From assembly GCA_023253175.1 (NCBI GenBank), contig JALRHH010000001.1:492020-556019 (forward strand): a stretch of 64,000 bases of DNA, in the 5' to 3' direction. Position 1 is the first letter of the stretch. Each line of letters starts with the position of its first letter. The DNA is from Candidatus Saccharimonadia bacterium (lineage in GTDB: Bacteria > Patescibacteriota > Saccharimonadia > Saccharimonadales > JALRHH01). Positions 37,318 to 59,664 of this stretch are shown in pieces. The position numbers were made by a program, and so were the translations under genes. The notes below the pieces were generated by a model that was not told the DNA's origin, searched no databases, and saw only the letters and a program-made list of their open reading frames with translations.

Positions 37318-37349
37318 TTAAAAAACACCTGTGTGTTTTGCACAGGTGT
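37318..37349 (-). terminator. Rho-independent terminator after rplU
   Basis: Minus-sense ACACCTGTG-CAAAACA-CACAGGTGT followed by TTTTTAATTT. Perfect 9-bp stem. Confidence 0.75.
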
Positions 37350-37368
37350 TTTCTGAATCCAGTTTAGC

Positions 37369-37677
37369 TTACGCAATCTTAGTGATCTTGAGCTGAGTCT
37401 GGTGCTGGCGGTGGCCACGTACTGTGTGCACGCGCTTCTTAGCCTTGTAGCGGAGTGAAGTGACCTTGTCGGCCTGCACATCTGCTGCAACGATTTCTGC
37501 CGTAACTTTTGCACCCTTTACTTCAGGGGTGCCGACGGTTGTTTTATCGCCATCGATAACAAGAAGAGCGGCAAATTCTGCAGTTTTGCCTTCCTGCTTC
37601 AATAGTTCTACGCTAAGGGTTTCCCCTTCTGCAACGAGGTACTGCTTCCCACCTGTTGCAATGACTGCTTTTTTCAT
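37369..37677 (-). CDS. rplU: 50S ribosomal protein L21
   Basis: MKKAVIATGGKQYLVAEGETLSVELL...KVTSLRYKAKKRVHTVRGHRQHQTQLKITKI is a typical L21 sequence and length (102 aa). Confidence 0.95.
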   Translation of the reverse strand: MKKAVIATGGKQYLVAEGETLSVELLKQEGKTAEFAALLVIDGDKTTVGTPEVKGAKVTAEIVAADVQADKVTSLRYKAKKRVHTVRGHRQHQTQLKITKIA

Positions 37678-37746: not shown

Positions 37747-40590
37747 CTATACCTTACTTAGACTAATTTTAATGATAGATCCCTCTACCTTTGCCTCAGT
37801 AGTGAATGAACCGCCCTCTTCCATTACATCCGCCAATGTCTCTCGTTTAATCTCATCCTCAAACTCTGCAATTGCTGTGCCGAGCTCAGCATCATCAGTT
37901 TCGAGAGATAGCTTAATTCGATCATCAACATTGAGGCCAGCCTCTTTTCGGGCGTTCTGAATGTAGCGAACTACCTCTCGCATCAGACCCTCTCTTTTGA
38001 GTGCTGGCGTGACTTCCGTATCAAGAGCCAACTCTTTACCTAAAATAACTGACTTAACATTCAGTTCCTCTGTTAGGATATCTTCAAAGTCAACAAACTC
38101 ACCAAGCGCAGGAACCGTTATGCTCGCAAGTGGCTGACGCACCTTCAACTTGTTGACCGAACGTAGAGACAAGCCCTGGTTCACATACTCACGAACTGTT
38201 CCCATGTCCTTCACCACGAGCTCGTTGACGTGACCTGCCGCCGGCCAATCCTCCAAATGAACGCTCTCACCACCGGTGAGCTTCTGGTACAGCTCCTCCG
38301 CCAAGAATGGCGTAAACGGTGCCAGGACATAACTGAGACGTACTAAGACATAGTGTAGTGTCTTGTAGGCCATCAACTTGTCACCATCATCTTCGCTCTT
38401 CCAGAAACGACGGCGAGAACGGCGCACGTACCAGTTAGAGGCATCATCGATAAACGGCAAGATCGGCTTTACGGCATTTGGAATGTCGTAGTGCTCCATG
38501 TGAGTCTCAACTTCTGAGGCAAGTTGATGCACACGACTGATAATCCACTGATCGAGGGCATTCGTAGCCTCTTCGGAAGGATCCACGAGCTGTCCATCCC
38601 ACTCCCAGTTGTCAACTTCTGCATACATCGTAAAGAAGTCGTACATGTTCCAGACCATGCTGAGTTTACGGGCAACATCACCGACCTCTTTATCCTGCAA
38701 TGCGAAGTCTTCACCGTTTAAGAGCGGGCTCTGAAGCAGCAAGAACCTCAGTGAATCAGCAGAAAACTTATCCATGAGTTCATTCGGGTCAGTATAGTTC
38801 CCGTAGCTCTTACTCATTTTGCGACCATCATTTCCGGCGACGTTACCAGTTACGATAACGTTCTTAAATGAATTTTCGCCGAATAGCGCAATGCTCATAG
38901 CGTGCATGTAATAGAACCACGCACGCACCTGGCCGATATATTCGACAATAAAGTCACCTGGGAAGTTAGCTTCGAACTTCTCCTTGTTCTCGAACGGGTA
39001 ATGGAACTGTGCAAACGGCATAGAACCAGCCTCGAACCAGCTGTCCATCACCTTATCGATACGAGTATACTTCTCACCATCGATCTCAAAGGTAATCTCA
39101 TCAACCCAAGGACGGTGGTAATCTTCTAACTCTACCCCGGATAATTCCTTGAGTTCCGCATAGCTGCCAACGACCTTTGTCTTGCCACTCTCTGTCTTCC
39201 AGACGGGCATAGCAGTTGCCCAAAAGCGATCACGGCTAATATTCCAATCAGGCGCCTGTAGAACGGTTTTCTCAAAGCGACCATGCTTCACATGGGCCGG
39301 GAACCAATTAATTGGCTCATTCTTTTCAAGCATCTTCTCGCGCTGACCATCAATATTCATAAACCAACTTGGATGCGCACGGTACATGAGCCGCGTACCA
39401 CAGCGGTGACAGTGTGGGTAGCTGTGCCGGTAGTAGTCAATCTTCCAGACGGTGCCGCGCTCCTTAAGTTCTTTAGCGATCGGCTTGTTGACCTCCCAGA
39501 CGTTCTGCCCCTGCCAGTCGCCTTCGGTATAGAACCCGTTCTGATCAATCACATGAACAACTGGCACCTTGTGACTCTTGCCGAGCTCAAAGTCCTCCTC
39601 ACCGTATGCTGGAGCCAAGTGAACAATACCAGTACCAGCCTCAGCCTCGACATAGTCAGCGTGCCAAACCTTATGAGCATTTTCTCCCCTGTTAACACCC
39701 AAAAGAGGCTCGTAAGATTTACCGACCAAGTCCTTACCCTTTAGTTCACGGACAATCTCGTACTCCAAGGGCTGGTGCTTTTCATCCTGCAGTACTTTTT
39801 GTAGGAGTTCCTTTGCAAGAATGAACTGTTCATCCCCTACTTTCACCTCAACATATTCAAACGCCTTATTCACAGCCAGTGCGGTGTTTGCCGGAAGCGT
39901 CCAAGGGGTTGTGGTCCATGCCAATAGCGTTGAGCCATCATCAAGCTTAAACTTCACATACACGCTCGGATCAGTTACGTCCTGATATGCGCCAGTGTCC
40001 ATCGTCACTTCAGCCTTAGAGAGGGGCGTACCATCAAGCGTACAGTACATAAGTACCTTCTCGCCCTCATAGATGCTTCCCTTTTCGTATAAGGTCTTAA
40101 ACGCCCACCAAATGGACTCCATGTAATCCTTGTCCATGGTCTTGTAGGCACCCTTAAACTCAACCCAGCGGCCAATACGATCAATCGTGTCTTCCCATTC
40201 ACTACTGGTCTGGACCATATTTTCACGGGTAGCGGTGATATACTTTTCAATTCCATATTCAATCACCTCTTGCCGAGAGTGGATACCAAGTTTTTTCTCC
40301 GTGAAACGCTCTGCTGGAAGGCCATGACAGTCCCAGCCCCACACACGCTCTACACGCTTGCCTTTCATTGTCTGATACCGGGGCACGACATCTTTGACAA
40401 TAGAACTGAGGAGCGTCCCGTGGTGCGGCACACCAGAGATAAATGGTGGACCGTCGTAGAACACATAGCTATTATCTTTTGAGCGCTGTTCTACAGACTT
40501 CTCGAAAGTCTTGTTTTGCTTCCACTGCTGCACCAAGTCTTTCTCGTACTCAAGTGCTCGCCTGCGTGATCCTGATTTATACTTCATCAT
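37747..40590 (-). CDS. ileS: Isoleucyl-tRNA synthetase
   Basis: Class I aaRS with a HIGH-like motif (PFISGVPHHGT), KMSKS (GRKMSKSYGN) and a CP1 editing-domain region (WTTTPWTLPAN). The ORF track starts at TTG 40602; ATG-ATG at 40590 is preceded by GAAAGGAAAA. Preceded by a T-box leader with an Ile (AUC) specifier candidate. Confidence 0.95.
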   Translation of the reverse strand: MMKYKSGSRRRALEYEKDLVQQWKQNKTFEKSVEQRSKDNSYVFYDGPPFISGVPHHGTLLSSIVKDVVPRYQTMKGKRVERVWGWDCHGLPAERFTEKKLGIHSRQEVIEYGIEKYITATRENMVQTSSEWEDTIDRIGRWVEFKGAYKTMDKDYMESIWWAFKTLYEKGSIYEGEKVLMYCTLDGTPLSKAEVTMDTGAYQDVTDPSVYVKFKLDDGSTLLAWTTTPWTLPANTALAVNKAFEYVEVKVGDEQFILAKELLQKVLQDEKHQPLEYEIVRELKGKDLVGKSYEPLLGVNRGENAHKVWHADYVEAEAGTGIVHLAPAYGEEDFELGKSHKVPVVHVIDQNGFYTEGDWQGQNVWEVNKPIAKELKERGTVWKIDYYRHSYPHCHRCGTRLMYRAHPSWFMNIDGQREKMLEKNEPINWFPAHVKHGRFEKTVLQAPDWNISRDRFWATAMPVWKTESGKTKVVGSYAELKELSGVELEDYHRPWVDEITFEIDGEKYTRIDKVMDSWFEAGSMPFAQFHYPFENKEKFEANFPGDFIVEYIGQVRAWFYYMHAMSIALFGENSFKNVIVTGNVAGNDGRKMSKSYGNYTDPNELMDKFSADSLRFLLLQSPLLNGEDFALQDKEVGDVARKLSMVWNMYDFFTMYAEVDNWEWDGQLVDPSEEATNALDQWIISRVHQLASEVETHMEHYDIPNAVKPILPFIDDASNWYVRRSRRRFWKSEDDGDKLMAYKTLHYVLVRLSYVLAPFTPFLAEELYQKLTGGESVHLEDWPAAGHVNELVVKDMGTVREYVNQGLSLRSVNKLKVRQPLASITVPALGEFVDFEDILTEELNVKSVILGKELALDTEVTPALKREGLMREVVRYIQNARKEAGLNVDDRIKLSLETDDAELGTAIAEFEDEIKRETLADVMEEGGSFTTEAKVEGSIIKISLSKV

Positions 40591-40753
40591 TTTTCCTTTC
40601 AAAATAGCCTATCAGCCCTTCAAGACCTACCCTATCAAAGCCTTGAAAATGCTCCTGAATATCCCCTAATGTTTCAATGTCAGCCTCTGAGTCACTAGGC
40701 TGATCAAGCATACCTATCAATTCTCTTAGATCTAATGGCGGGAGACTGAGCAT
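40577..40753 (-). CDS. 58-codon acidic upstream ORF overlapping the ileS start
   Basis: ATG 40753 is preceded by AGGAAAGGA plus 4 nt. It encodes MLSLPPLDLRELIGMLDQPSDSEADIETLGDIQEHFQGFDRVGLEGLIGYFERKNDEV. Its last codons (...AGG AAA AAT GAT GAA GTA TAA) contain the ileS SD and ATG, a 14-nt overlap. The ORF-track GTG start (40795) lies inside the T-box helix and is rejected. Confidence 0.4.
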   Translation of the reverse strand: MLSLPPLDLRELIGMLDQPSDSEADIETLGDIQEHFQGFDRVGLEGLIGYFERKNDEV

Positions 40754-40981
40754 ATCATCCTTTCCTGTGAAAATAAAAAATCCCTTTTTAGTCACTGGAA
40801 TCCGCGTACTGCGGACGGTACCATCCAGTTTCTAAAAAGAGATTCTTTTTAGCACTTACTTGCCAGTTCTTACGCGCTGGTTTGCGGTGAGTTCTACTGA
40901 GCGTTCGCTGTTCTTCTCACTCCTCGTGGGTGATAACCACTTCTTGAATATACTCGCAATCTGATATTCAAACGGATTCTG
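40754..40981 (-). promoter_or_regulatory. T-box riboswitch leader (tRNA-Ile sensing), probably the translational (SD-sequestering) type
   Basis: Minus-sense 40828..40795 is CUGGA-UGGUACC-GUCCGC-AGUAC-GCGGAU-UCCAG. This gives helix A1 (5 bp), the canonical 7-nt bulge UGGUACC, helix A2 (6 bp) and a 5-nt loop. UUCCAGUGA (40800..40792) can alternatively pair with UCACAGGAA (40770..40762), which overlaps the SD. Upstream there is a hairpin GUGG-UUAUCAC-CCAC with AUC-A in the loop (40940..40926), an S-turn-like AGUAGAA, a CCAG...CUGG pseudoknot-like element, and the hairpin AAAAAGA-AUC-UCUUUUU. Confidence 0.75.
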
Positions 40982-40987
40982 GTAACT

Positions 40988-41016
40988 ATTGTAGACCAAT
41001 TTGCAACGTTATGCAA
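40988..41016 (-). promoter_or_regulatory. Candidate promoter of the T-box/ileS transcript (TTGCAT-N17-TACAAT)
   Basis: Minus-sense TTGCAT (41016..41011), a 17-nt spacer, then TACAAT (40993..40988). This predicts a ~228-nt leader, typical for T-boxes. Confidence 0.5.
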
Positions 41017-41280
41017 CTAGCCTCTCGCAAACGCTGCTACCTCTTGTATGAGTGGTAATTTATCATTTGCCCAGTACTGTACAAGCTGGCCATCATCACG
41101 GAGCACGAGAATAGCTGGATGAGGCATAACATCATATAGGCGCATCATATCCATGGCCCGAGGAGTGTCCACATCAATAAGTTCGAACGTTATATTCTCT
41201 TGGTGTTCCATGTCGCGCACAAACGTTTCTACTGATCGTGCCTGCTCTGACTCCGGCCTATAAATGACTACTGATCTCAT
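41017..41280 (-). CDS. Small hypothetical protein (87 aa), possibly thioredoxin-fold-like but without Cys
   Basis: ATG at 41280. MRSVVIYRPESEQARSVETFVRDMEHQENITFELIDVDTPRAMDMMRLYDVMPHPAILVLRDDGQLVQYW. The beta-alpha-beta pattern resembles glutaredoxin/NrdH-like proteins, but there is no CxxC. Confidence 0.45.
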   Translation of the reverse strand: MRSVVIYRPESEQARSVETFVRDMEHQENITFELIDVDTPRAMDMMRLYDVMPHPAILVLRDDGQLVQYWANDKLPLIQEVAAFARG

Positions 41281-41325
41281 ACTACAAGTCTAACATAAGC
41301 GTTTATGGCACTTAACCTTTTATCA

Positions 41326-41353
41326 ACTAAAAAGCGGGGAGTAACTCCCCGCT
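41326..41353 (-). terminator. Rho-independent terminator after nrdJ
   Basis: Minus-sense AGCGGGGAG-TTA-CTCCCCGCT followed by TTTTAGTTG. Perfect 9-bp GC-rich stem (41333..41341 / 41345..41353). Confidence 0.75.
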
Positions 41354-41375
41354 TTTATTTCCCGAGTGGACAATC

Positions 41376-44147
41376 CTAGCTACAGCCGGTTGTAGATCCA
41401 CATGAGGTACAGACGTAGCAGCTACCTGCTTTCTGCGTCTGGTTGCCACAGTTGTAGCAAAGTGGCGCAGTCGTGTCAGACTTCACAGCCTTAGGCTTTG
41501 CAGCGGCCGCAGGAGCAGGCTTTGGAGCCTCTATAGGAGCTGGAGCGGGTGCGATAGTAGCATCCACCTTGGCCTCTGCTGGCTGGTCTGCAAGTAGGCT
41601 TGTCTGCTCTTCTGGCATATCGTCGATTGACGCAAGGCCAAGCTCGAGACGATCATCAAATGAGAGATAGTTCAGCGCAAGACGCTTCGCCACATAGTCC
41701 ATCAGTGATGAAGCCGTACGGATTTCTGGATCATCAGTGATACCAGATGGTGCGAATGACATGCTGAGGAATGACTTGACGTAGTCCTTAAGCGGCACAC
41801 CGTGCTGCAGACCGTGGCTGATTGAAATCGCAAGTGCGTCCATGAATCCAGCCAAAGTAGAACCCTGCTTAGCAAGACGGATGAATACCTCACCAGGAGT
41901 GCCATCTTCGTATTCACCAACTGTTAGGTAGCCGTGGCTGCCTGCAACGGTGAATGAGAAGGTCTTTGAACTACGAGCCTTTGGAAGTTCGCGGCGGATT
42001 GCACCCTTCACGATGAACTTGTCGTTCAGGACATCAACTGGAGTTTCTTCTTTCTTGTCATCACCGTCTTTCTTAGCCATTGAGAGTGGCTGTGCAACCT
42101 TACAGTTGTCACGGTAGATAGCGACCGCCTTAAGGCCAAGCTTCCATGAATCGATGTGAAGCTGTTCTACATCTTCTACGGTAGCTGACTCTGGCATGTT
42201 TACGGTCTTACTGATCGCACCAGAGATAAATGGCTGTACCGCTGCCATCATCTTGACGTGACCGAGGTAGTGAATAGCGTTATCACCCATTGAACAAGCG
42301 AATACATTTTCGTGTTCTTTCTTGAGGTGAGGGGCACCTAATATTGTCTTTTCAACATCAATGTAGTTAACAATATCGTCGATTTCATCACTTGCGTAAC
42401 CAAGAGCCTTGAGTGCACGAGGCACGGTCTGGTTGACGATACTCATTGTACCACCACCAACAAGCTTCTTGACCTTCACGAGACCGAGGTCTGGTTCGAT
42501 ACCGGTTGTGTCGCAGTCCATCATCAGACCGATTGTTCCAGTTGGAGCAAGCACAGATGCCTGTGAGTTACGAACACCGTACTGGGAGCCAAGTTCTACG
42601 GCTTCGTCCCAGGCAGTTGCAGCTGCGCTGAGAAGCTCTTCTGATACAAGACCAGCGTCGATGTCATTAACTGCTGCACGGTGCTGCTTGAGCACGTTGA
42701 TCATGCCTTCCTTATCCTTGTGGAAACCAGCGAATGGTCCGACGCGGTTAGCAATCTTCGCACTTGTAGCGTATGCGTGACCAGTCATCAGGGCAGTAAT
42801 AGCCGCAGCCTGTGCGCGGCCTTCTTCTGAGTCATATGGGAGACCCTGAGCCATCAGAAGTGCACCAAGGTTTGCGTAACCGATACCGAGCTCACGGTAG
42901 GCACGAGCGTTCTTAGTAATGTCTTCTGTTGGGTACTCACTGTAGCCAACAAGGATTTCCTGAGCCGTAAAGATAAGCTCTACAGTGTGACGGAATGCTT
43001 CGATGTCAAAGCTAAAGTCATCCTTGAGGTACTTAAGGAGGTTGATTGAAGCAAGGTTACACGCTGAGTTATCAAGGTGCATGTATTCCGAACAAGGGTT
43101 AGAACCGTTGATACGACCAGCGTTTGGCGTGGTGTGCCAGTGATTAATGGTAGTGTCGAACTGCATACCTGGGTCCGCGCACTCCCATGCTGCTTCCGCA
43201 AACTGGCGGAAGAGGTCACGAGCACGAACAGTCTTCACGGTCTTACCGTTCGTAACAGCCTTAAGATCCCAGTTGTCGTCGTTTTCGACAGCTTTCATGA
43301 AGTCATCACTCACACGAACAGAGTTGTTTGCGTTCTGATATTGCACCGAGAAGTTATCCTTGCCATCGAGGCTCATGTCAAAGCCGTTCTCCTGGAGAAC
43401 ACGAGCTTTACGCTCCTCGATTGCCTTACACCAGATGAACTCTTCGACATCTGGGTGATCGGCGTTCAAGATAACCATTTTAGCAGCACGACGAGTCTTA
43501 CCACCGCTCTTAATAGCACCAGCAGACGCATCAGCACCACGCATGAAGCTGAGAGGACCTGATGCAGTACCACCGCTGTTACCAAGCTTTTCAGCAGATG
43601 AACGGATTGCACTGATGTTTAGACCAGCACCAGAGCCGCCCTTAAAGACCATTCCTTCTTCTTTGTACCAGTTGAGAATAGAAGGCATTGTGTCTTCTAC
43701 CTTAAGGATGAAACATGCGCTCGCCTGCTGAGAACGGTCCTTGAGACCGATGTTAAACCATACCGGTGAGTTGAATGCTGCACGCTGCGTTGCAAGAATG
43801 TACTTAAGCTCTTCGCGGAAGTCTTCTGCTTCTGCATCAGATGCAAAGTAAGACTCCTGAAGACCCTGACGAGTCACCGTATCAACCACACGGTCGATGA
43901 GGTGCTTCAGGCTACTCTCACGCTCTGGAGTGCCAGGAGTACCACCAAAGTACTTCTGTGCAACAATGTTAATTGCATTTAATGAAAAGTTCTCCGGAAA
44001 CTCAACGCCGAGCTGTTCAAATACAGCCTTGCCGGTCATTGGATTCGTTAAAACTGAATCACGCTTGACCCACTTGAGTTCGTCATATGCTTTGCTTTTA
44101 GGGGCAGTAAACAGACGCCTGTGCCCCAGGATAGTATTTTGTCCCAT
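41376..44147 (-). CDS. nrdJ: Ribonucleotide reductase, class II (adenosylcobalamin-dependent) type
   Basis: Active-site segment GSNPCSEYMHLDNSACNLASINL and a C-terminal Cys-rich tail CYNCGNQTQKAGSCYVCTSCGSTTGC typical of NrdJ. No adjacent beta subunit, and nrdR lies directly upstream. The ORF-track GTG 44213 is replaced by ATG 44147 (GAGGG SD; MGQNTILGHRRLF...). Confidence 0.85.
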   Translation of the reverse strand: MGQNTILGHRRLFTAPKSKAYDELKWVKRDSVLTNPMTGKAVFEQLGVEFPENFSLNAINIVAQKYFGGTPGTPERESSLKHLIDRVVDTVTRQGLQESYFASDAEAEDFREELKYILATQRAAFNSPVWFNIGLKDRSQQASACFILKVEDTMPSILNWYKEEGMVFKGGSGAGLNISAIRSSAEKLGNSGGTASGPLSFMRGADASAGAIKSGGKTRRAAKMVILNADHPDVEEFIWCKAIEERKARVLQENGFDMSLDGKDNFSVQYQNANNSVRVSDDFMKAVENDDNWDLKAVTNGKTVKTVRARDLFRQFAEAAWECADPGMQFDTTINHWHTTPNAGRINGSNPCSEYMHLDNSACNLASINLLKYLKDDFSFDIEAFRHTVELIFTAQEILVGYSEYPTEDITKNARAYRELGIGYANLGALLMAQGLPYDSEEGRAQAAAITALMTGHAYATSAKIANRVGPFAGFHKDKEGMINVLKQHRAAVNDIDAGLVSEELLSAAATAWDEAVELGSQYGVRNSQASVLAPTGTIGLMMDCDTTGIEPDLGLVKVKKLVGGGTMSIVNQTVPRALKALGYASDEIDDIVNYIDVEKTILGAPHLKKEHENVFACSMGDNAIHYLGHVKMMAAVQPFISGAISKTVNMPESATVEDVEQLHIDSWKLGLKAVAIYRDNCKVAQPLSMAKKDGDDKKEETPVDVLNDKFIVKGAIRRELPKARSSKTFSFTVAGSHGYLTVGEYEDGTPGEVFIRLAKQGSTLAGFMDALAISISHGLQHGVPLKDYVKSFLSMSFAPSGITDDPEIRTASSLMDYVAKRLALNYLSFDDRLELGLASIDDMPEEQTSLLADQPAEAKVDATIAPAPAPIEAPKPAPAAAAKPKAVKSDTTAPLCYNCGNQTQKAGSCYVCTSCGSTTGCS

Positions 44148-44273
44148 AGTACCCTCACTTATAGGTTTAATGATTAATTTTGTTGTTTGTTTAGAGTTCG
44201 CGGGTCTCTCCACCGCTCAGCTCTCCGCGAGCCTGGTAACAACCAGAATCGGGGAGAGCCGTTAAAACCCTTC

Positions 44274-52696: not shown

Positions 52697-53596
52697 ATGA
52701 ATAACCCCTCTCCCATCGTGTTCTTCGGGAGTGGTCCTGTGGCAGCCGCTTCCCTTGAACTGCTTCGGCAGCACCAAGAGGTAGTTGCCGTAGTCACCAA
52801 GCCCACCACTCAGCACGAAATGGAATTAGCATCTGGGGGTGCAAAGGTTTACTCTGTCAGCACAAAAAAAGAACTTGATGAGCTGATCTCATCTGGTATC
52901 TTTGCGAACATACGCCTCGCAGTCCTCATAGACTTTGGAATTATTGTATCGAGCCTCGTTATTAGCAGTTTTGAGCTCGGCATCATTAATAGTCACTTCT
53001 CCGTATTACCACAGCTTCGCGGCGCCGACCCCATTAGCTTTGCTATACTAAGCGGCCAAGAATCTACAGGAGTCAGCCTGATGATGATTGAGGAGGGCAT
53101 GGATACTGGGAAAGTCCTCACAACCAGAAGCCTTAAGATCGACGTCCAAGACACAACCCCAAGTCTCACAAATAAGTTAATACAACTCAGTGACGAACTC
53201 CTCAAAGAGAAGATTCCTCTCTATACTGCCGGAGCAATACAGCCTCGGAATCAATCACATCCAGATAGAGCCACGTATTCCAGGAAGCTTGCAAAAGAAG
53301 ATGGCATCATAGACTGGGAAAAGCCAGCCAGCGTCATTGAACGAGAGATACGAGCCTTCATCGAATGGCCAAAGAGTCGAACCATGATTGCAGATAAAGA
53401 TGTCGTCATCACAAAGGCTCACGCTTCTGATGATGACACCATTGGCAAACCCGGGGATATTGTTATTTTCGGAAAAGAAGCAATTGGGGTAACCACTGCA
53501 TCTGGAATACTTTGGATTGATGAGCTGAAGCCCGCAGGCAAAAAAGAAATGCCAGCGAAGGCATTCCTCGCTGGCTATCGACAATTACTCGGGTAA
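52697..53596 (+). CDS. fmt: Methionyl-tRNA formyltransferase
   Basis: IVFFGSGPVAAASL, INSHFSVLPQLRGADPI and a C-terminal Formyl_trans_C-like region. It has the def-fmt adjacency. Confidence 0.95.
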   Translation: MNNPSPIVFFGSGPVAAASLELLRQHQEVVAVVTKPTTQHEMELASGGAKVYSVSTKKELDELISSGIFANIRLAVLIDFGIIVSSLVISSFELGIINSHFSVLPQLRGADPISFAILSGQESTGVSLMMIEEGMDTGKVLTTRSLKIDVQDTTPSLTNKLIQLSDELLKEKIPLYTAGAIQPRNQSHPDRATYSRKLAKEDGIIDWEKPASVIEREIRAFIEWPKSRTMIADKDVVITKAHASDDDTIGKPGDIVIFGKEAIGVTTASGILWIDELKPAGKKEMPAKAFLAGYRQLLG

Positions 53597-59168: not shown

Positions 59169-59664
59169 GAAGCTCGCCGCAGAATATCCGGACGTAATCT
59201 TAAAGCCGGGCAAAGTATTCCTCTGGTCCCCCAAACAACACGTAGTTTCATACATACCTGATCAACTCACCTCAGATAAGGGCAGCTGGTCTCTCCTTCA
59301 CGAGGTGTCGCATGCAATCCTAGGGCACCGAGACTATCGGAATGATTTCGAGCTACTGCAGCTCGAGGTTGCAGCCTGGGAAGAAGCACTGGCAGTCGGA
59401 GAGAGGTTAAGTATAAAGATTGACCAAAACTTCATCGAAGATTGTCTTGATACGTACCGCGATTGGCTCCATCAGAGAAGCACTTGTCCGACTTGTGGCA
59501 GCAGCGGGCTTCAACACGACCCCAAAACGTACAGATGCCACAACTGCCTCACGATATGGCACGTCAGTCAGTCACGCTTCTGCAGGCCATACCGGAAGAA
59601 ACTACACACTTCAGTGACAAAAGAAAAATCGCCTGACCAAAATGACCAGACGATTTTTAATTAG
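59116..59664 (+). CDS. HExxH metallopeptidase-like protein with a C-terminal zinc ribbon (ImmA/IrrE-like?)
   Basis: AGGAGG lies 9 nt upstream of ATG 59116. Contains LLHEVSHAILGH (HExxH) and CPTCGSSGLQHDPKTYRCHNC (CxxC...CxxC). It overlaps the ROK gene 3' end by 53 nt in another frame. Confidence 0.6.
   Translation: MAVLNSPKTSYNPETLLKKLAAEYPDVILKPGKVFLWSPKQHVVSYIPDQLTSDKGSWSLLHEVSHAILGHRDYRNDFELLQLEVAAWEEALAVGERLSIKIDQNFIEDCLDTYRDWLHQRSTCPTCGSSGLQHDPKTYRCHNCLTIWHVSQSRFCRPYRKKLHTSVTKEKSPDQNDQTIFN

What the first reader, a model, noticed from the sequence alone, without database searches (positions are those of the whole stretch)
40754..40981. Canonical T-box element upstream of ileS that appears to act by SD sequestration
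The minus-sense RNA 40828..40795 folds exactly like a T-box antiterminator. It has CUGGA/UCCAG (helix A1), the 7-nt bulge UGGUACC, GUCCGC/GCGGAU (helix A2) and the loop AGUAC. The UGGU matches a tRNA ending ACCA with an A discriminator base, as in tRNA-Ile.

The 3' strand of A1 plus its flank (UUCCAGUGA) is 8/9 complementary to UCACAGGAA, which overlaps the AGGAAAGGA Shine-Dalgarno sequence 25 nt downstream. That suggests an anti-sequestrator/sequestrator switch like the actinobacterial ileS T-boxes.

A weak terminator reading is also possible (GGAUUCC/GGGAUUU followed by a U-run).

An AUC-A is displayed in a 7-nt hairpin loop (GUGG-UUAUCAC-CCAC). A second AUC-A lies in an upstream hairpin (40965..40963). 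An S-turn-like AGUAGAA and a pseudoknot-like CCAG..GCGCG..CUGG follow, which is consistent with a short Stem I plus a Stem II/IIA-B architecture.

I am not aware of T-boxes being well documented in CPR-like genomes.
Basis: partly seen in the sequence, partly recalled or inferred. Interest (0 to 1): 0.66.

Follow-up and report, generated by a model that had tools for sequence, protein, structure and literature searches.

The report
Saccharibacterial isoleucine T-box with rewired terminator
This is a genuine tRNA-sensing T-box leader RNA in front of the isoleucyl-tRNA synthetase operon of a Saccharibacterium (candidate phyla radiation), but it most likely stops transcription rather than hiding the ribosome-binding site, and its terminator is wired in a way not described for T-boxes.

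Summary
The element is a real T-box. It scores below Rfam's cut-off (RF00230: 31.5 bits against 93), but the same leader precedes ileS in 77 of 78 related Saccharimonadales species, and every helix shows compensatory changes.

It has an ultrashort Stem I: a 4-bp hairpin with a 7-nt loop carrying an invariant AUC-A. It also has Stem II with an S-turn, the IIA/B pseudoknot, the AAGYG–Stem III–AA discriminator motif, and an A1 / UGGUACC bulge / A2 antiterminator.

SD sequestration is not supported. Pairing between the antiterminator 3' half and the SD region is at chance level across 70 leaders. In the window it is weaker than the structure it would need to displace.

What is conserved is an 11–17 bp helix between the Stem III loop plus 3' strand and the segment just after A1, always followed by a U-tract. 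A1/A2 stay nested inside this hairpin. So the terminator competes with Stem III, not with the antiterminator.

I infer tRNA-Ile-controlled transcription attenuation by exchange of Stem III's pairing partner. This is a new variant of a known kind, in a phylum where I found no report of T-boxes. In the window, a 58-aa ORF lies between the leader and ileS.

The parts
40988..41016 (-). Putative promoter: TTGCAT (41016-41011), 17-nt spacer, TACAAT (40993-40988). The inferred transcription start is about 40981.
   Evidence: Read by eye. It falls below the consensus scanner's threshold. Relatives carry TATAAT/TACAAT 8-12 nt before the conserved 5' box. Inferred, not shown.
40968..40978 (-). Conserved 5' box AAUCCGUUUGA (GACGUUUGA in other lineages). 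Part of it forms a short base helix with the 3' flank of Stem I.
   Evidence: Seen in the printed leaders. Not tested formally.
40944..40971 (-).
   Evidence: The hairpin is absent or has a different sequence at this position in relatives. It is not part of the conserved core.
40926..40940 (-). Ultrashort Stem I: GUGG / UUAUCAC / CCAC. The specifier AUC is at 40934-40932, followed by A40931.
   Evidence: A 4-bp stem with a 7-nt loop N-Y-AUC-A-N occurs in 76 of 78 leaders, and AUC is invariant. The stem is 100% paired, with 4/4 pairs showing compensatory change.
40887..40922 (-). Stem II (GAGUGAG...CUCAC), with the GAAGAA / AGUAGAA S-turn motif and an upper helix AGCG/CGCU.
   Evidence: RNAalifold on a MAFFT alignment predicts both helices. 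The lower helix is 95.8% paired, with 5/5 compensatory pairs. GGAAGAA and AGUAGA are nearly invariant.
40863..40886 (-). Stem IIA (CGC 40886-40884 / GCG 40875-40873) and pseudoknot IIB (CCAG 40880-40877 with CUGG 40866-40863). An F-box-like GUAA follows IIA.
   Evidence: IIA is 96.7% paired. IIB complementarity of at least 4 bp occurs in 46/71 leaders, with many different sequences.
40853..40857 (-). Linker purine motif AAGUG (RRRxG), 5' of Stem III.
   Evidence: A, A, G and G are invariant or nearly invariant in 50 leaders. The motif is defined in PMC7583486.
40832..40852 (-). Stem III: CUAAAAAGA / AUC / UCUUUUUAG. This is the ON-state partner of the shared strand 40844-40832.
   Evidence: 96.6% paired, with 9/9 compensatory pairs, on a CM-fitted alignment. 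Single-sequence folding gives a mean z of -3.25. It forms in the MFE of the truncated RNA.
40794..40831 (-). AA(A) linker and T-box antiterminator: A1 (A)CUGGA/UCCAG(U), bulge UGGUACC 40823-40817, A2 GUCCGC/GCGGAU, loop AGUAC.
   Evidence: A1 is 99.7% paired and A2 96%, with compensatory changes, on a sequence-only alignment. GAUGGUACC is nearly invariant.
40781..40791 (-). Strand D, CUAAAAAGGGA. It pairs with the Stem III loop plus 3' strand (UCUCUUUUUAG, 40842-40832) to form helix P0. P0 extends to 17 bp with A40848-A40843 and U40780-40775.
   Evidence: RNAalifold predicts P0 unprompted. 10/10 pairs are compensatory, and register-slide controls fall to 35-55% paired. RNAduplex gives -15.2 kcal/mol, z -5.1. 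It is part of the MFE structure.
40770..40780 (-). U-tract UUUUUUAUUUU, immediately 3' of P0. This is the inferred termination site.
   Evidence: There are 6-8 U in the first 9 nt after D in 74/74 leaders.
40577..40766 (-). SD AGGAAAGGA (40766-40758) and a 58-aa ORF (ATG 40753, stop 40579-40577). The ORF's 3' end overlaps the ileS SD and start.
   Evidence: No Pfam hit. There is only a weak match, in L044. Whether the ORF is expressed is not known.
37747..40590 (-). ileS (type 2 isoleucyl-tRNA synthetase). The start is probably ATG 40587 (MKYKSG...).
   Evidence: Pfam tRNA-synt_1, Anticodon_1 and DUF5915. The best PDB matches are 8c8u and 1ile; the type 1 enzyme 1ffy matches far more weakly.

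Best explanation
The RNA transcribed from about 40981 to 40770 (minus strand) is a T-box riboswitch that senses uncharged tRNA-Ile and controls the sORF-ileS operon by transcription attenuation.

Decoding. The AUC in the apical loop of an ultrashort Stem I pairs with the GAU anticodon. Stem II's S-turn and the IIA/B pseudoknot support this, as in actinobacterial ileS T-boxes.

Sensing. [quoted passage not shown] The AAGUG linker and Stem III dock under A1.

Switching (inferred). The loop and 3' strand of Stem III (40844-40832) have two alternative partners: its own 5' strand (ON state), or strand D (40791-40781), which emerges right after A1.
- Without a docked, uncharged tRNA, D displaces the Stem III 5' strand from the base of the stem. 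The result is one long hairpin, P0 + A1 + A2, that abuts the U-tract, and RNA polymerase terminates.
- With uncharged tRNA, the docked linker and Stem III resist invasion, and the polymerase reads through into the sORF and ileS.

The antiterminator helices are therefore not what is exchanged. Stem III is the anti-terminator.
For: Shown:
1. Family membership and architecture. The leader is found in 77/78 Saccharimonadales ileS loci with upstream sequence, one copy each. AUC is invariant. All helices covary.
2. P0. RNAalifold on a sequence-only alignment returns P0 + A1 + A2. That structure is 92.8% paired, 20/23 pairs have double changes, and register-slide controls give 35-55%.
3. Where D pairs. 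In 74 single sequences, D pairs best with the stretch ending 3-8 nt 5' of GAUGG in 71 of 74. Mean energy is -15.8 kcal/mol, against -5.2 for the canonical partner.
4. MFE folds. With D and the U-run included, A1 is fully kept in 72/74 and P0 has at least 8 bp in 73/74. The mean gain over the Stem III state is -14.5 kcal/mol.
5. Stem III is independently supported, so the shared strand has two conserved partners.
6. A U-tract directly follows D in 74/74 leaders.
7. The start codon lies 17-47 nt after the start of the U-run in 67 of 70 leaders (up to 84), and its SD a few nt upstream of it but still beyond the U-run, so the SD is not part of any conserved helix.
8. The same genome has A-tract/stem/U-tract terminators at gene ends.

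From the literature. [quoted passage not shown] In the Mtb ileS T-box, charged tRNA still pairs through NCCA, but the linker undocks and Stem III moves away (PMC12647780). Those are exactly the elements this terminator competes with.
Against: - There is no experimental evidence for termination, readthrough or tRNA binding.
- The hairpin carries a 45-nt structured insert, which is unusual for an intrinsic terminator.
- Reviews state that transcriptional T-boxes generally need a long Stem I for fast tRNA capture, and this one has none.
- The A2 base pair that serves as steric sensor in canonical T-boxes is G.U in only 31/67 leaders.
- The tRNA-Ile of this lineage could not be examined: no tRNA gene occurs in the window or in the 60 loci scanned.
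- Covariation counts for Stem III come from a model-fitted alignment.
- A Stem-III-less subgroup (L018, L062, L063 and others) can form a canonical terminator, so the wiring is not uniform.
Confidence: 0.68

Rival explanations
1. One reading: a translational T-box. The 3' strand of A1 plus its flank (UUCCAGUGA) pairs with UCACAGGAA and sequesters the SD unless uncharged tRNA-Ile stabilises the antisequestrator, as in actinobacterial ileS leaders.
For: 8/9 complementarity exists in the window. The Stem I type is the one associated with translational T-boxes. In a few close relatives, GGAA of the SD can pair with UUCC.
Against: - The pairing is not conserved: mean z is -0.34 over 70 leaders, only 6/70 fall below -2, and the window scores z -1.5.
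- In the window the helix is worth -5.6 kcal/mol. The whole sequestrator state (-19.9) is weaker than the state it must replace (-22.7).
- It leaves unexplained the invariant U-tract and the covarying P0 helix.
- The SD lies at a variable distance beyond the U-tract.
Confidence: 0.06
2. Canonical attenuation. The 3' strands of A2/A1 pair with D (for example GGAUUCC/GGGAUUU) to form an ordinary terminator that is mutually exclusive with the antiterminator.
For: This is the mechanism of all characterised transcriptional T-boxes. The same U-tract would serve. In the Stem-III-less subgroup this pairing reaches -8 to -13 kcal/mol.
Against: In the main group it averages -5.2 kcal/mol, against -15.8 for P0. 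In the window the state is worth -10.8, against -35.4. MFE folds keep A1 in 72/74 leaders. RNAalifold does not predict it.
Confidence: 0.08
3. P0 and the U-tract act at another level, such as mRNA stability or processing, or accessibility of a U-rich standby or enhancer site. Alternatively, P0 is a constitutive closing helix and regulation lies elsewhere.
For: Part of the U-tract pairs with the A-tract of the Stem III 5' strand in the long form of P0. No experiment ties the site to termination.
Against: A stem directly abutting 6-8 U in every member is the signature of intrinsic termination, and the genome uses such terminators. A constitutive P0 would eliminate Stem III, which covaries and which known T-boxes need for tRNA 3' end binding.
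Confidence: 0.1

Closest known systems
Actinobacterial ileS T-box riboswitches (M. tuberculosis, M. smegmatis, N. farcinica; Sherwood et al. 2015; Battaglia et al. 2019; 'class II' in TBDB)
   Same: - Same regulated gene, a type 2 IleRS.
- Ile AUC specifier.
- Truncated Stem I without the distal tRNA-elbow platform. In the ultrashort form the specifier sits in an apical loop.
- Stem II S-turn plus the IIA/B pseudoknot carry the decoding.
- The discriminator has the same purine linker, Stem III, A1, UGGN bulge and A2.
   Different: - Those leaders sequester the SD, and the OFF state needs a large rearrangement that breaks the antisequestrator.
- Here there is no conserved SD pairing. A U-tract terminator is present in every member. 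The A1/A2 hairpin persists in the OFF fold, and what is exchanged is the partner of the Stem III 3' strand.
Canonical transcriptional T-box leaders (B. subtilis tyrS and glyQS; Rfam RF00230)
   Same: Regulation by an intrinsic terminator with a U-tract. The T-box bulge, A1/A2, Stem III and its purine motif, the Stem II S-turn and the IIA/B pseudoknot (the last two as in tyrS) are shared.
   Different: - Long Stem I with a K-turn, a specifier bulge and the distal platform. Here that is replaced by a 15-nt hairpin: the RF00230 alignment replaces 78 model positions of Stem I with 7 nt, and the score is 31.5 against 93.
- The canonical terminator uses the 3' strands of A1 and A2 as its 5' strand. 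Here the terminator encloses A1/A2 and uses Stem III's 3' strand.

Membership tests
T-box riboswitch (general) | 7-nt bulge with UGGN at its 5' edge, directly adjacent to helix A1 and followed by helix A2 | tested here: met
   CUGGA-UGGUACC-GUCCGC...GCGGAU-UCCAG at 40828-40795. A1 is 99.7% paired and A2 96%, with compensatory changes in 50 leaders.
T-box riboswitch (general) | Specifier codon for the amino acid of the regulated gene, followed by a purine | tested here: met
   AUC-A lies in the Stem I loop upstream of ileS. AUC is invariant in 78 leaders.
T-box riboswitch (general) | Discriminator motif RRRxG - Stem III - AA | tested here: met
   AAGUG - Stem III - AAA at 40857-40829. The purines are invariant or nearly so. 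Stem III covaries. The motif is defined.
T-box riboswitch (general) | Stem II with an S-turn, and a Stem IIA/B pseudoknot (optional module) | tested here: met
T-box riboswitch (general) | Binds cognate uncharged tRNA, and the tRNA discriminator base matches N of UGGN | not testable with these tools
   No tRNA gene occurs in the window or in the 60 loci scanned. A73 for bacterial tRNA-Ile is taken from general knowledge only.
Rfam RF00230 / class I transcriptional T-box | Score at or above the RF00230 gathering threshold | tested here: not met
   31.5 bits against 93 (E = 4.6e-5 on 901 nt). There are no hits at gathering in the window or in 16 relatives.
Rfam RF00230 / class I transcriptional T-box | Long Stem I with a distal tRNA-elbow platform | tested here: not met
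   Stem I is a 4-bp hairpin, and 78 model positions are replaced by 7 nt.
Rfam RF00230 / class I transcriptional T-box | Terminator whose 5' strand is the 3' strands of A1/A2, mutually exclusive with the antiterminator | tested here: not met
   Mean -5.2 kcal/mol for that pairing, against -15.8 for Stem III 3' strand:D. A1 is kept in the OFF MFE in 72/74 leaders. The exception is the Stem-III-less subgroup.
Actinobacterial translational ileS T-box (class II) | Truncated or ultrashort Stem I with the specifier in an apical loop, upstream of ileS | tested here: met
.
Actinobacterial translational ileS T-box (class II) | Sequestrator helix that pairs the SD with an anti-SD in the antisequestrator 3' half, and no terminator | tested here: not met
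   Mean z -0.34 and 6/70 significant. A U-tract terminator is present in 74/74.

The most novel reading that the evidence does not exclude
This is a T-box class, apparently general in Saccharibacteria, in which the genetic decision is made by exchanging the pairing partner of Stem III's 3' strand, while the tRNA-binding A1/bulge/A2 hairpin stays folded in both states. If so, docking of Stem III and the linker, rather than antiterminator stability, would be the variable that reports aminoacylation. It would also show that a transcriptional T-box can work with an ultrashort Stem I.
Probability: 0.5. Interest if true: 0.72.

Novelty: new variant of a known kind. Interest (0 to 1): 0.62.

Why it matters
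1. It extends T-box regulation to the candidate phyla radiation. These leaders are invisible to Rfam's threshold. The TBDB class II search was confined to Actinobacteria, and I found no paper linking T-boxes to Saccharibacteria, Patescibacteria or CPR.

2. It contradicts the working rule that ultrashort Stem I goes with translational control and that transcriptional control needs a long Stem I.

3. Its terminator competes with Stem III and not with A1/A2. That makes it a natural test case for the current debate on how aminoacylation is sensed: rigid steric rejection, or undocking of the linker and Stem III. Here the output should depend only on whether Stem III is held in place.

4. ileS is essential and these organisms have tiny genomes with few known regulators, so this may be one of their few identifiable amino-acid-responsive switches.

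Tried and rejected
- **SD sequestration.** Tested by RNAduplex of the SD region against both halves of the antiterminator in 70 leaders. The result is at chance level. Window energies are unfavourable.
7 bp with 3 G.U pairs. The state is worth -10.8 kcal/mol and is not conserved.
- **The second AUC (40965-40963) as specifier.** It lies in a variable inserted hairpin.
- **Rfam at gathering threshold.** Nothing in the window or in 16 relatives.
- **The consensus terminator scanner.** It finds nothing here, because it requires a loop of 3-8 nt.
- **tRNA-Ile of the lineage.** No tRNA gene in the window or in the 60 loci scanned.
- **A second T-box in the 64-kb window.** None with either covariance model.
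- **Other specificities.** A metagenome scan with a discriminator pattern gave 14 T-boxes among 80 loci. Twelve or thirteen belong to this Ile family and one is an ordinary pheS T-box.
- **Homologues of the 58-aa ORF among the loci.** One weak match only.
- **Papers not held in the library.** Sherwood 2015, Vitreschak 2008, Battaglia 2019 and Kreuzer & Henkin 2018. The claim that this wiring is undescribed therefore rests on reviews and later papers, not on those primary sources.

Full report
**Observation**

- A1: CUGGA/UCCAG, 40828-40824 and 40799-40795.
- Bulge: UGGUACC, 40823-40817.
- A2: GUCCGC/GCGGAU with loop AGUAC.
- Specifier hairpin: GUGG-UUAUCAC-CCAC, 40940-40926.
- AGUAGAA at 40898-40892.
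- Pseudoknot: CCAG/CUGG.
- The 8/9 complementarity of UUCCAGUGA (40800-40792) to UCACAGGAA (40770-40762), which overlaps AGGAAAGGA.
- The U-run at 40780-40770.

Rfam at its gathering thresholds reports nothing in the whole window. In E-value mode, RF00230 matches 40793..40953(-) at 31.5 bits (gathering 93; E = 4.6e-5 for 901 nt). The alignment replaces 78 Stem I model positions with 7 nt.

**Context**

The downstream 951-aa ORF is an isoleucyl-tRNA synthetase of type 2: the best solved relatives are 8c8u and 1ile, and the type 1 enzyme 1ffy matches far more weakly. Its closest relatives in one-genome-per-species GTDB contigs are all Saccharibacteria/Saccharimonadales MAGs at 63-85% identity.

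A 58-aa ORF (40753..40577) lies between the leader and ileS. It has no Pfam hit, and its end overlaps the ileS SD and start at 40590/40587.

**It is a conserved RNA family**

- GAUGGNACC occurs within 1 kb upstream of ileS in about 73 of 80 loci.
- A covariance model of the 3' domain finds one hit per locus in 77 of the 78 loci that have upstream sequence, including four that the regular expression missed. It finds one hit in the window, at 40770..40866, 94.4 bits.
- A model of the 5' domain finds 71 loci and the window at 40829..40944, 92.9 bits.
- None of 16 diverse relatives reaches the RF00230 gathering score.

**Architecture**

- *Stem I.* A 4-bp hairpin with a 7-nt loop N-Y-AUC-A-N occurs in 76 of 78 leaders (L020 has C instead of A after AUC, L023 an 8-nt loop), and AUC never varies. 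The stem is 100% paired, with compensatory changes.
- *Stem II.* RNAalifold on a sequence-only MAFFT alignment recovers Stem II lower and upper, as well as Stem I and IIA. On the model-fitted alignment, the lower helix is 95.8% paired.
- *IIA and IIB.* IIA is 96.7% paired. The IIB pseudoknot has at least 4 bp in 46/71 leaders, with many different sequences.
- *Discriminator.* It matches the published definition RRRxG-Stem III-AA: here AAGUG, Stem III, AAA. Stem III is 96.6% paired, with 9/9 compensatory pairs. A1 and A2 covary even on the MAFFT alignment.

**Expression platform**

Three readings were tested.

1. *SD sequestration.* Over 70 leaders, the best duplex between the SD region and the antiterminator 3' half averages -5.9 kcal/mol, with a mean z of -0.34 against shuffles. 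Only 6 are below z = -2, and the window is at -8.6 kcal/mol, z -1.5. The best state containing it (-19.9) is less stable than Stem III + A1 + A2 (-22.7). A sequestrator that is weaker than the antisequestrator cannot be the default OFF state.

2. *Canonical terminator.* D paired with the A2/A1 3' strands averages -5.2 kcal/mol. In the window this state is worth -10.8.

3. *A helix I call P0.* The segment D, immediately 3' of A1 (window CUAAAAAGGGA, 40791-40781), is complementary to the loop and 3' strand of Stem III (UCUCUUUUUAG, 40842-40832).
   - In 74 single sequences, D's best partner ends 3-8 nt before GAUGG in 71 of 74 (4-6 nt in 64). The mean is -15.8 kcal/mol with mean z -3.6; the window gives -15.2, z -5.1.
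   - RNAalifold on the MAFFT alignment returns P0 + A1 + A2 without prompting.
   - Counted on that alignment, the structure is 92.8% paired. All 10 core P0 pairs have double changes, for example UUAG/CUAA, UUCG/CGAA, UUGG/CCAA and AGAGG/CCUC. Sliding the register drops pairing to 35-55%.
   - On the fitted alignment of 67 leaders, it is 96.3% paired, with 21/23 compensatory pairs.
   - Single-sequence MFE folds that include D and the U-run keep A1 in 72/74 and form at least 8 bp of P0 in 73/74. They gain 14.5 kcal/mol on average over the Stem III state; the window goes from -20.4 to -34.7.
   - D is followed at once by 6-8 U within 9 nt in 74/74 leaders.
   - The start codon lies 17-47 nt after the start of the U-run in 67 of 70 leaders (up to 84), with the SD between the U-run and the start codon.
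   - The genome has A-tract/stem/U-tract terminators at gene ends, for example 37354..37320 after the ileS operon.

**Mechanism (inferred)**

The Stem III 3' strand has two conserved, mutually exclusive partners, and P0 abuts a U-tract. Published work shows that Stem III with its flanking purines is indispensable for capturing the tRNA 3' end. It also shows that in the M. tuberculosis ileS T-box a charged-tRNA mimic still pairs through NCCA, while the linker undocks and Stem III moves away from the A1 helix it stacks on.

I therefore propose the following.
- With uncharged tRNA-Ile, the docked linker and Stem III resist invasion, and the polymerase passes the U-tract.
- Otherwise, D is positioned at the base of Stem III by the closed A1 helix. 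It displaces the Stem III 5' strand, gains extra pairs with the former loop, and completes a long hairpin P0-A1-A2 that terminates transcription.

Shown: the two alternative helices, the U-tract, and the absence of conserved SD pairing. Inferred: that termination occurs, that it responds to tRNA, and the order of events.

**Comparison with known systems**

The decoding half works like, and probably belongs with, the actinobacterial ileS T-boxes: short or ultrashort Stem I, specifier in an apical loop, dependence on Stem II and IIA/B. Those leaders sequester the SD through a rearrangement that breaks the antisequestrator. This family does not.

Like class I T-boxes, it carries a terminator. But the class I terminator takes the 3' strands of A1/A2 as its 5' strand, and class I needs the long Stem I.

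I therefore file it as a T-box, since the core defining features are met, but as a member of neither described class. It is a new variant.

A Stem-III-less subgroup exists (L018, L038, L058, L059, L062, L063). There the AAGYCCC linker box pairs directly with D, and a canonical terminator is also possible. This suggests the platform evolves readily.

**Novelty and caveats**

Searches of the held library found no paper combining T-box with Saccharibacteria, Patescibacteria or candidate phyla radiation. TBDB searched its short-Stem-I model only in Actinobacteria. Several primary papers were not available to me, so an earlier mention cannot be excluded.

A metagenome scan with a discriminator pattern returned 12-13 further members of the same Ile family and one ordinary pheS T-box. 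It returned no member with another specifier.

No experiment exists, the cognate tRNA was not examined, and the Stem III counts come from a fitted alignment, though single-sequence folds agree.

Noticed in passing
window 40577..40753 (-); loci L006, L013, L019-L023, L025, L029, L032, L044, L046, L054, L056, L061, L067, L070 between the T-box U-tract and ileS: In about 20 of 78 species a gene has been inserted between the T-box terminator and ileS, and it differs between lineages: GNAT acetyltransferase, cupin-like, CAP-domain, an unknown 177-aa protein, and small acidic ORFs of 46-90 aa with no Pfam hit. The window's 58-aa ORF is one of the small ORFs. It has only a weak match, in L044 (DIQEHFQGF / DIQEHMGQF). 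The leader seems to be a preferred landing site for genes that then come under Ile-starvation control.
   Followed up: partly
alignment A3, first pair of helix A2 (window G40816-U40800): The G.U wobble at the base of A2 is described as the main steric sensor of the 3'-aminoacyl group in canonical T-boxes. It is G.U in only 31 of 67 leaders; the rest have U-A (15), A-U (11) or G-C (8).
   Followed up: no
loci L003, L040, L005, L015, L032, L049, L069, L058 (T-box bulge): The bulge varies: UGGUAAC or UGGUAUC instead of UGGUACC, and UGGA or UGGC instead of UGGU. The last two imply a different tRNA discriminator base or a tolerated mismatch. The tRNAs were not available to check.
   Followed up: no
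loci L018, L038, L058, L059, L062, L063 (and partly L036, L069, L072): This subgroup has no Stem III hairpin. The AAGYCCC linker box sits directly before A1, and the downstream GGGGCUU strand complements both that box and the A2/A1 3' strand, so both nested and canonical terminators are possible.
   Followed up: partly
loci L013, L017, L037, L048, L054, L056, L057, L064, L067 (Stem III); L041, L067, L068 (A2 loop): There are large extra hairpins inserted in the Stem III loop or the A2 loop. The review notes that such discriminator insertions are frequent in translational T-boxes.
   Followed up: no
window 40968..40978 (-) and the 5' ends of related leaders: There is a conserved 5' box (AAUCCGUUUGA, GACGUUUGA or AUGCGUUC). 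A short base helix encloses Stem I (for example L008 AACAUU...AAUGUU), with GA/GA flanks on the stem that resemble a reduced K-turn region. In the window, GAAUCCG is also complementary to CGGAUUC of the A2/A1 3' strands.
   Followed up: no
window 37320..37354 (-), 59624..59658 (-), 53551..53575 (-): There are clear intrinsic terminators with an A-tract, a 10-16 bp stem and a U-tract. The first closes the ileS operon after a 102-aa ORF (37369..37677).
   Followed up: no
window 41017..44213 (-): Upstream of the leader lie a class II (B12-dependent) ribonucleotide reductase with a TSCPD domain and an 87-aa ORF without a Pfam hit. The stop codon of that ORF abuts the putative ileS-leader promoter.
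   Followed up: no
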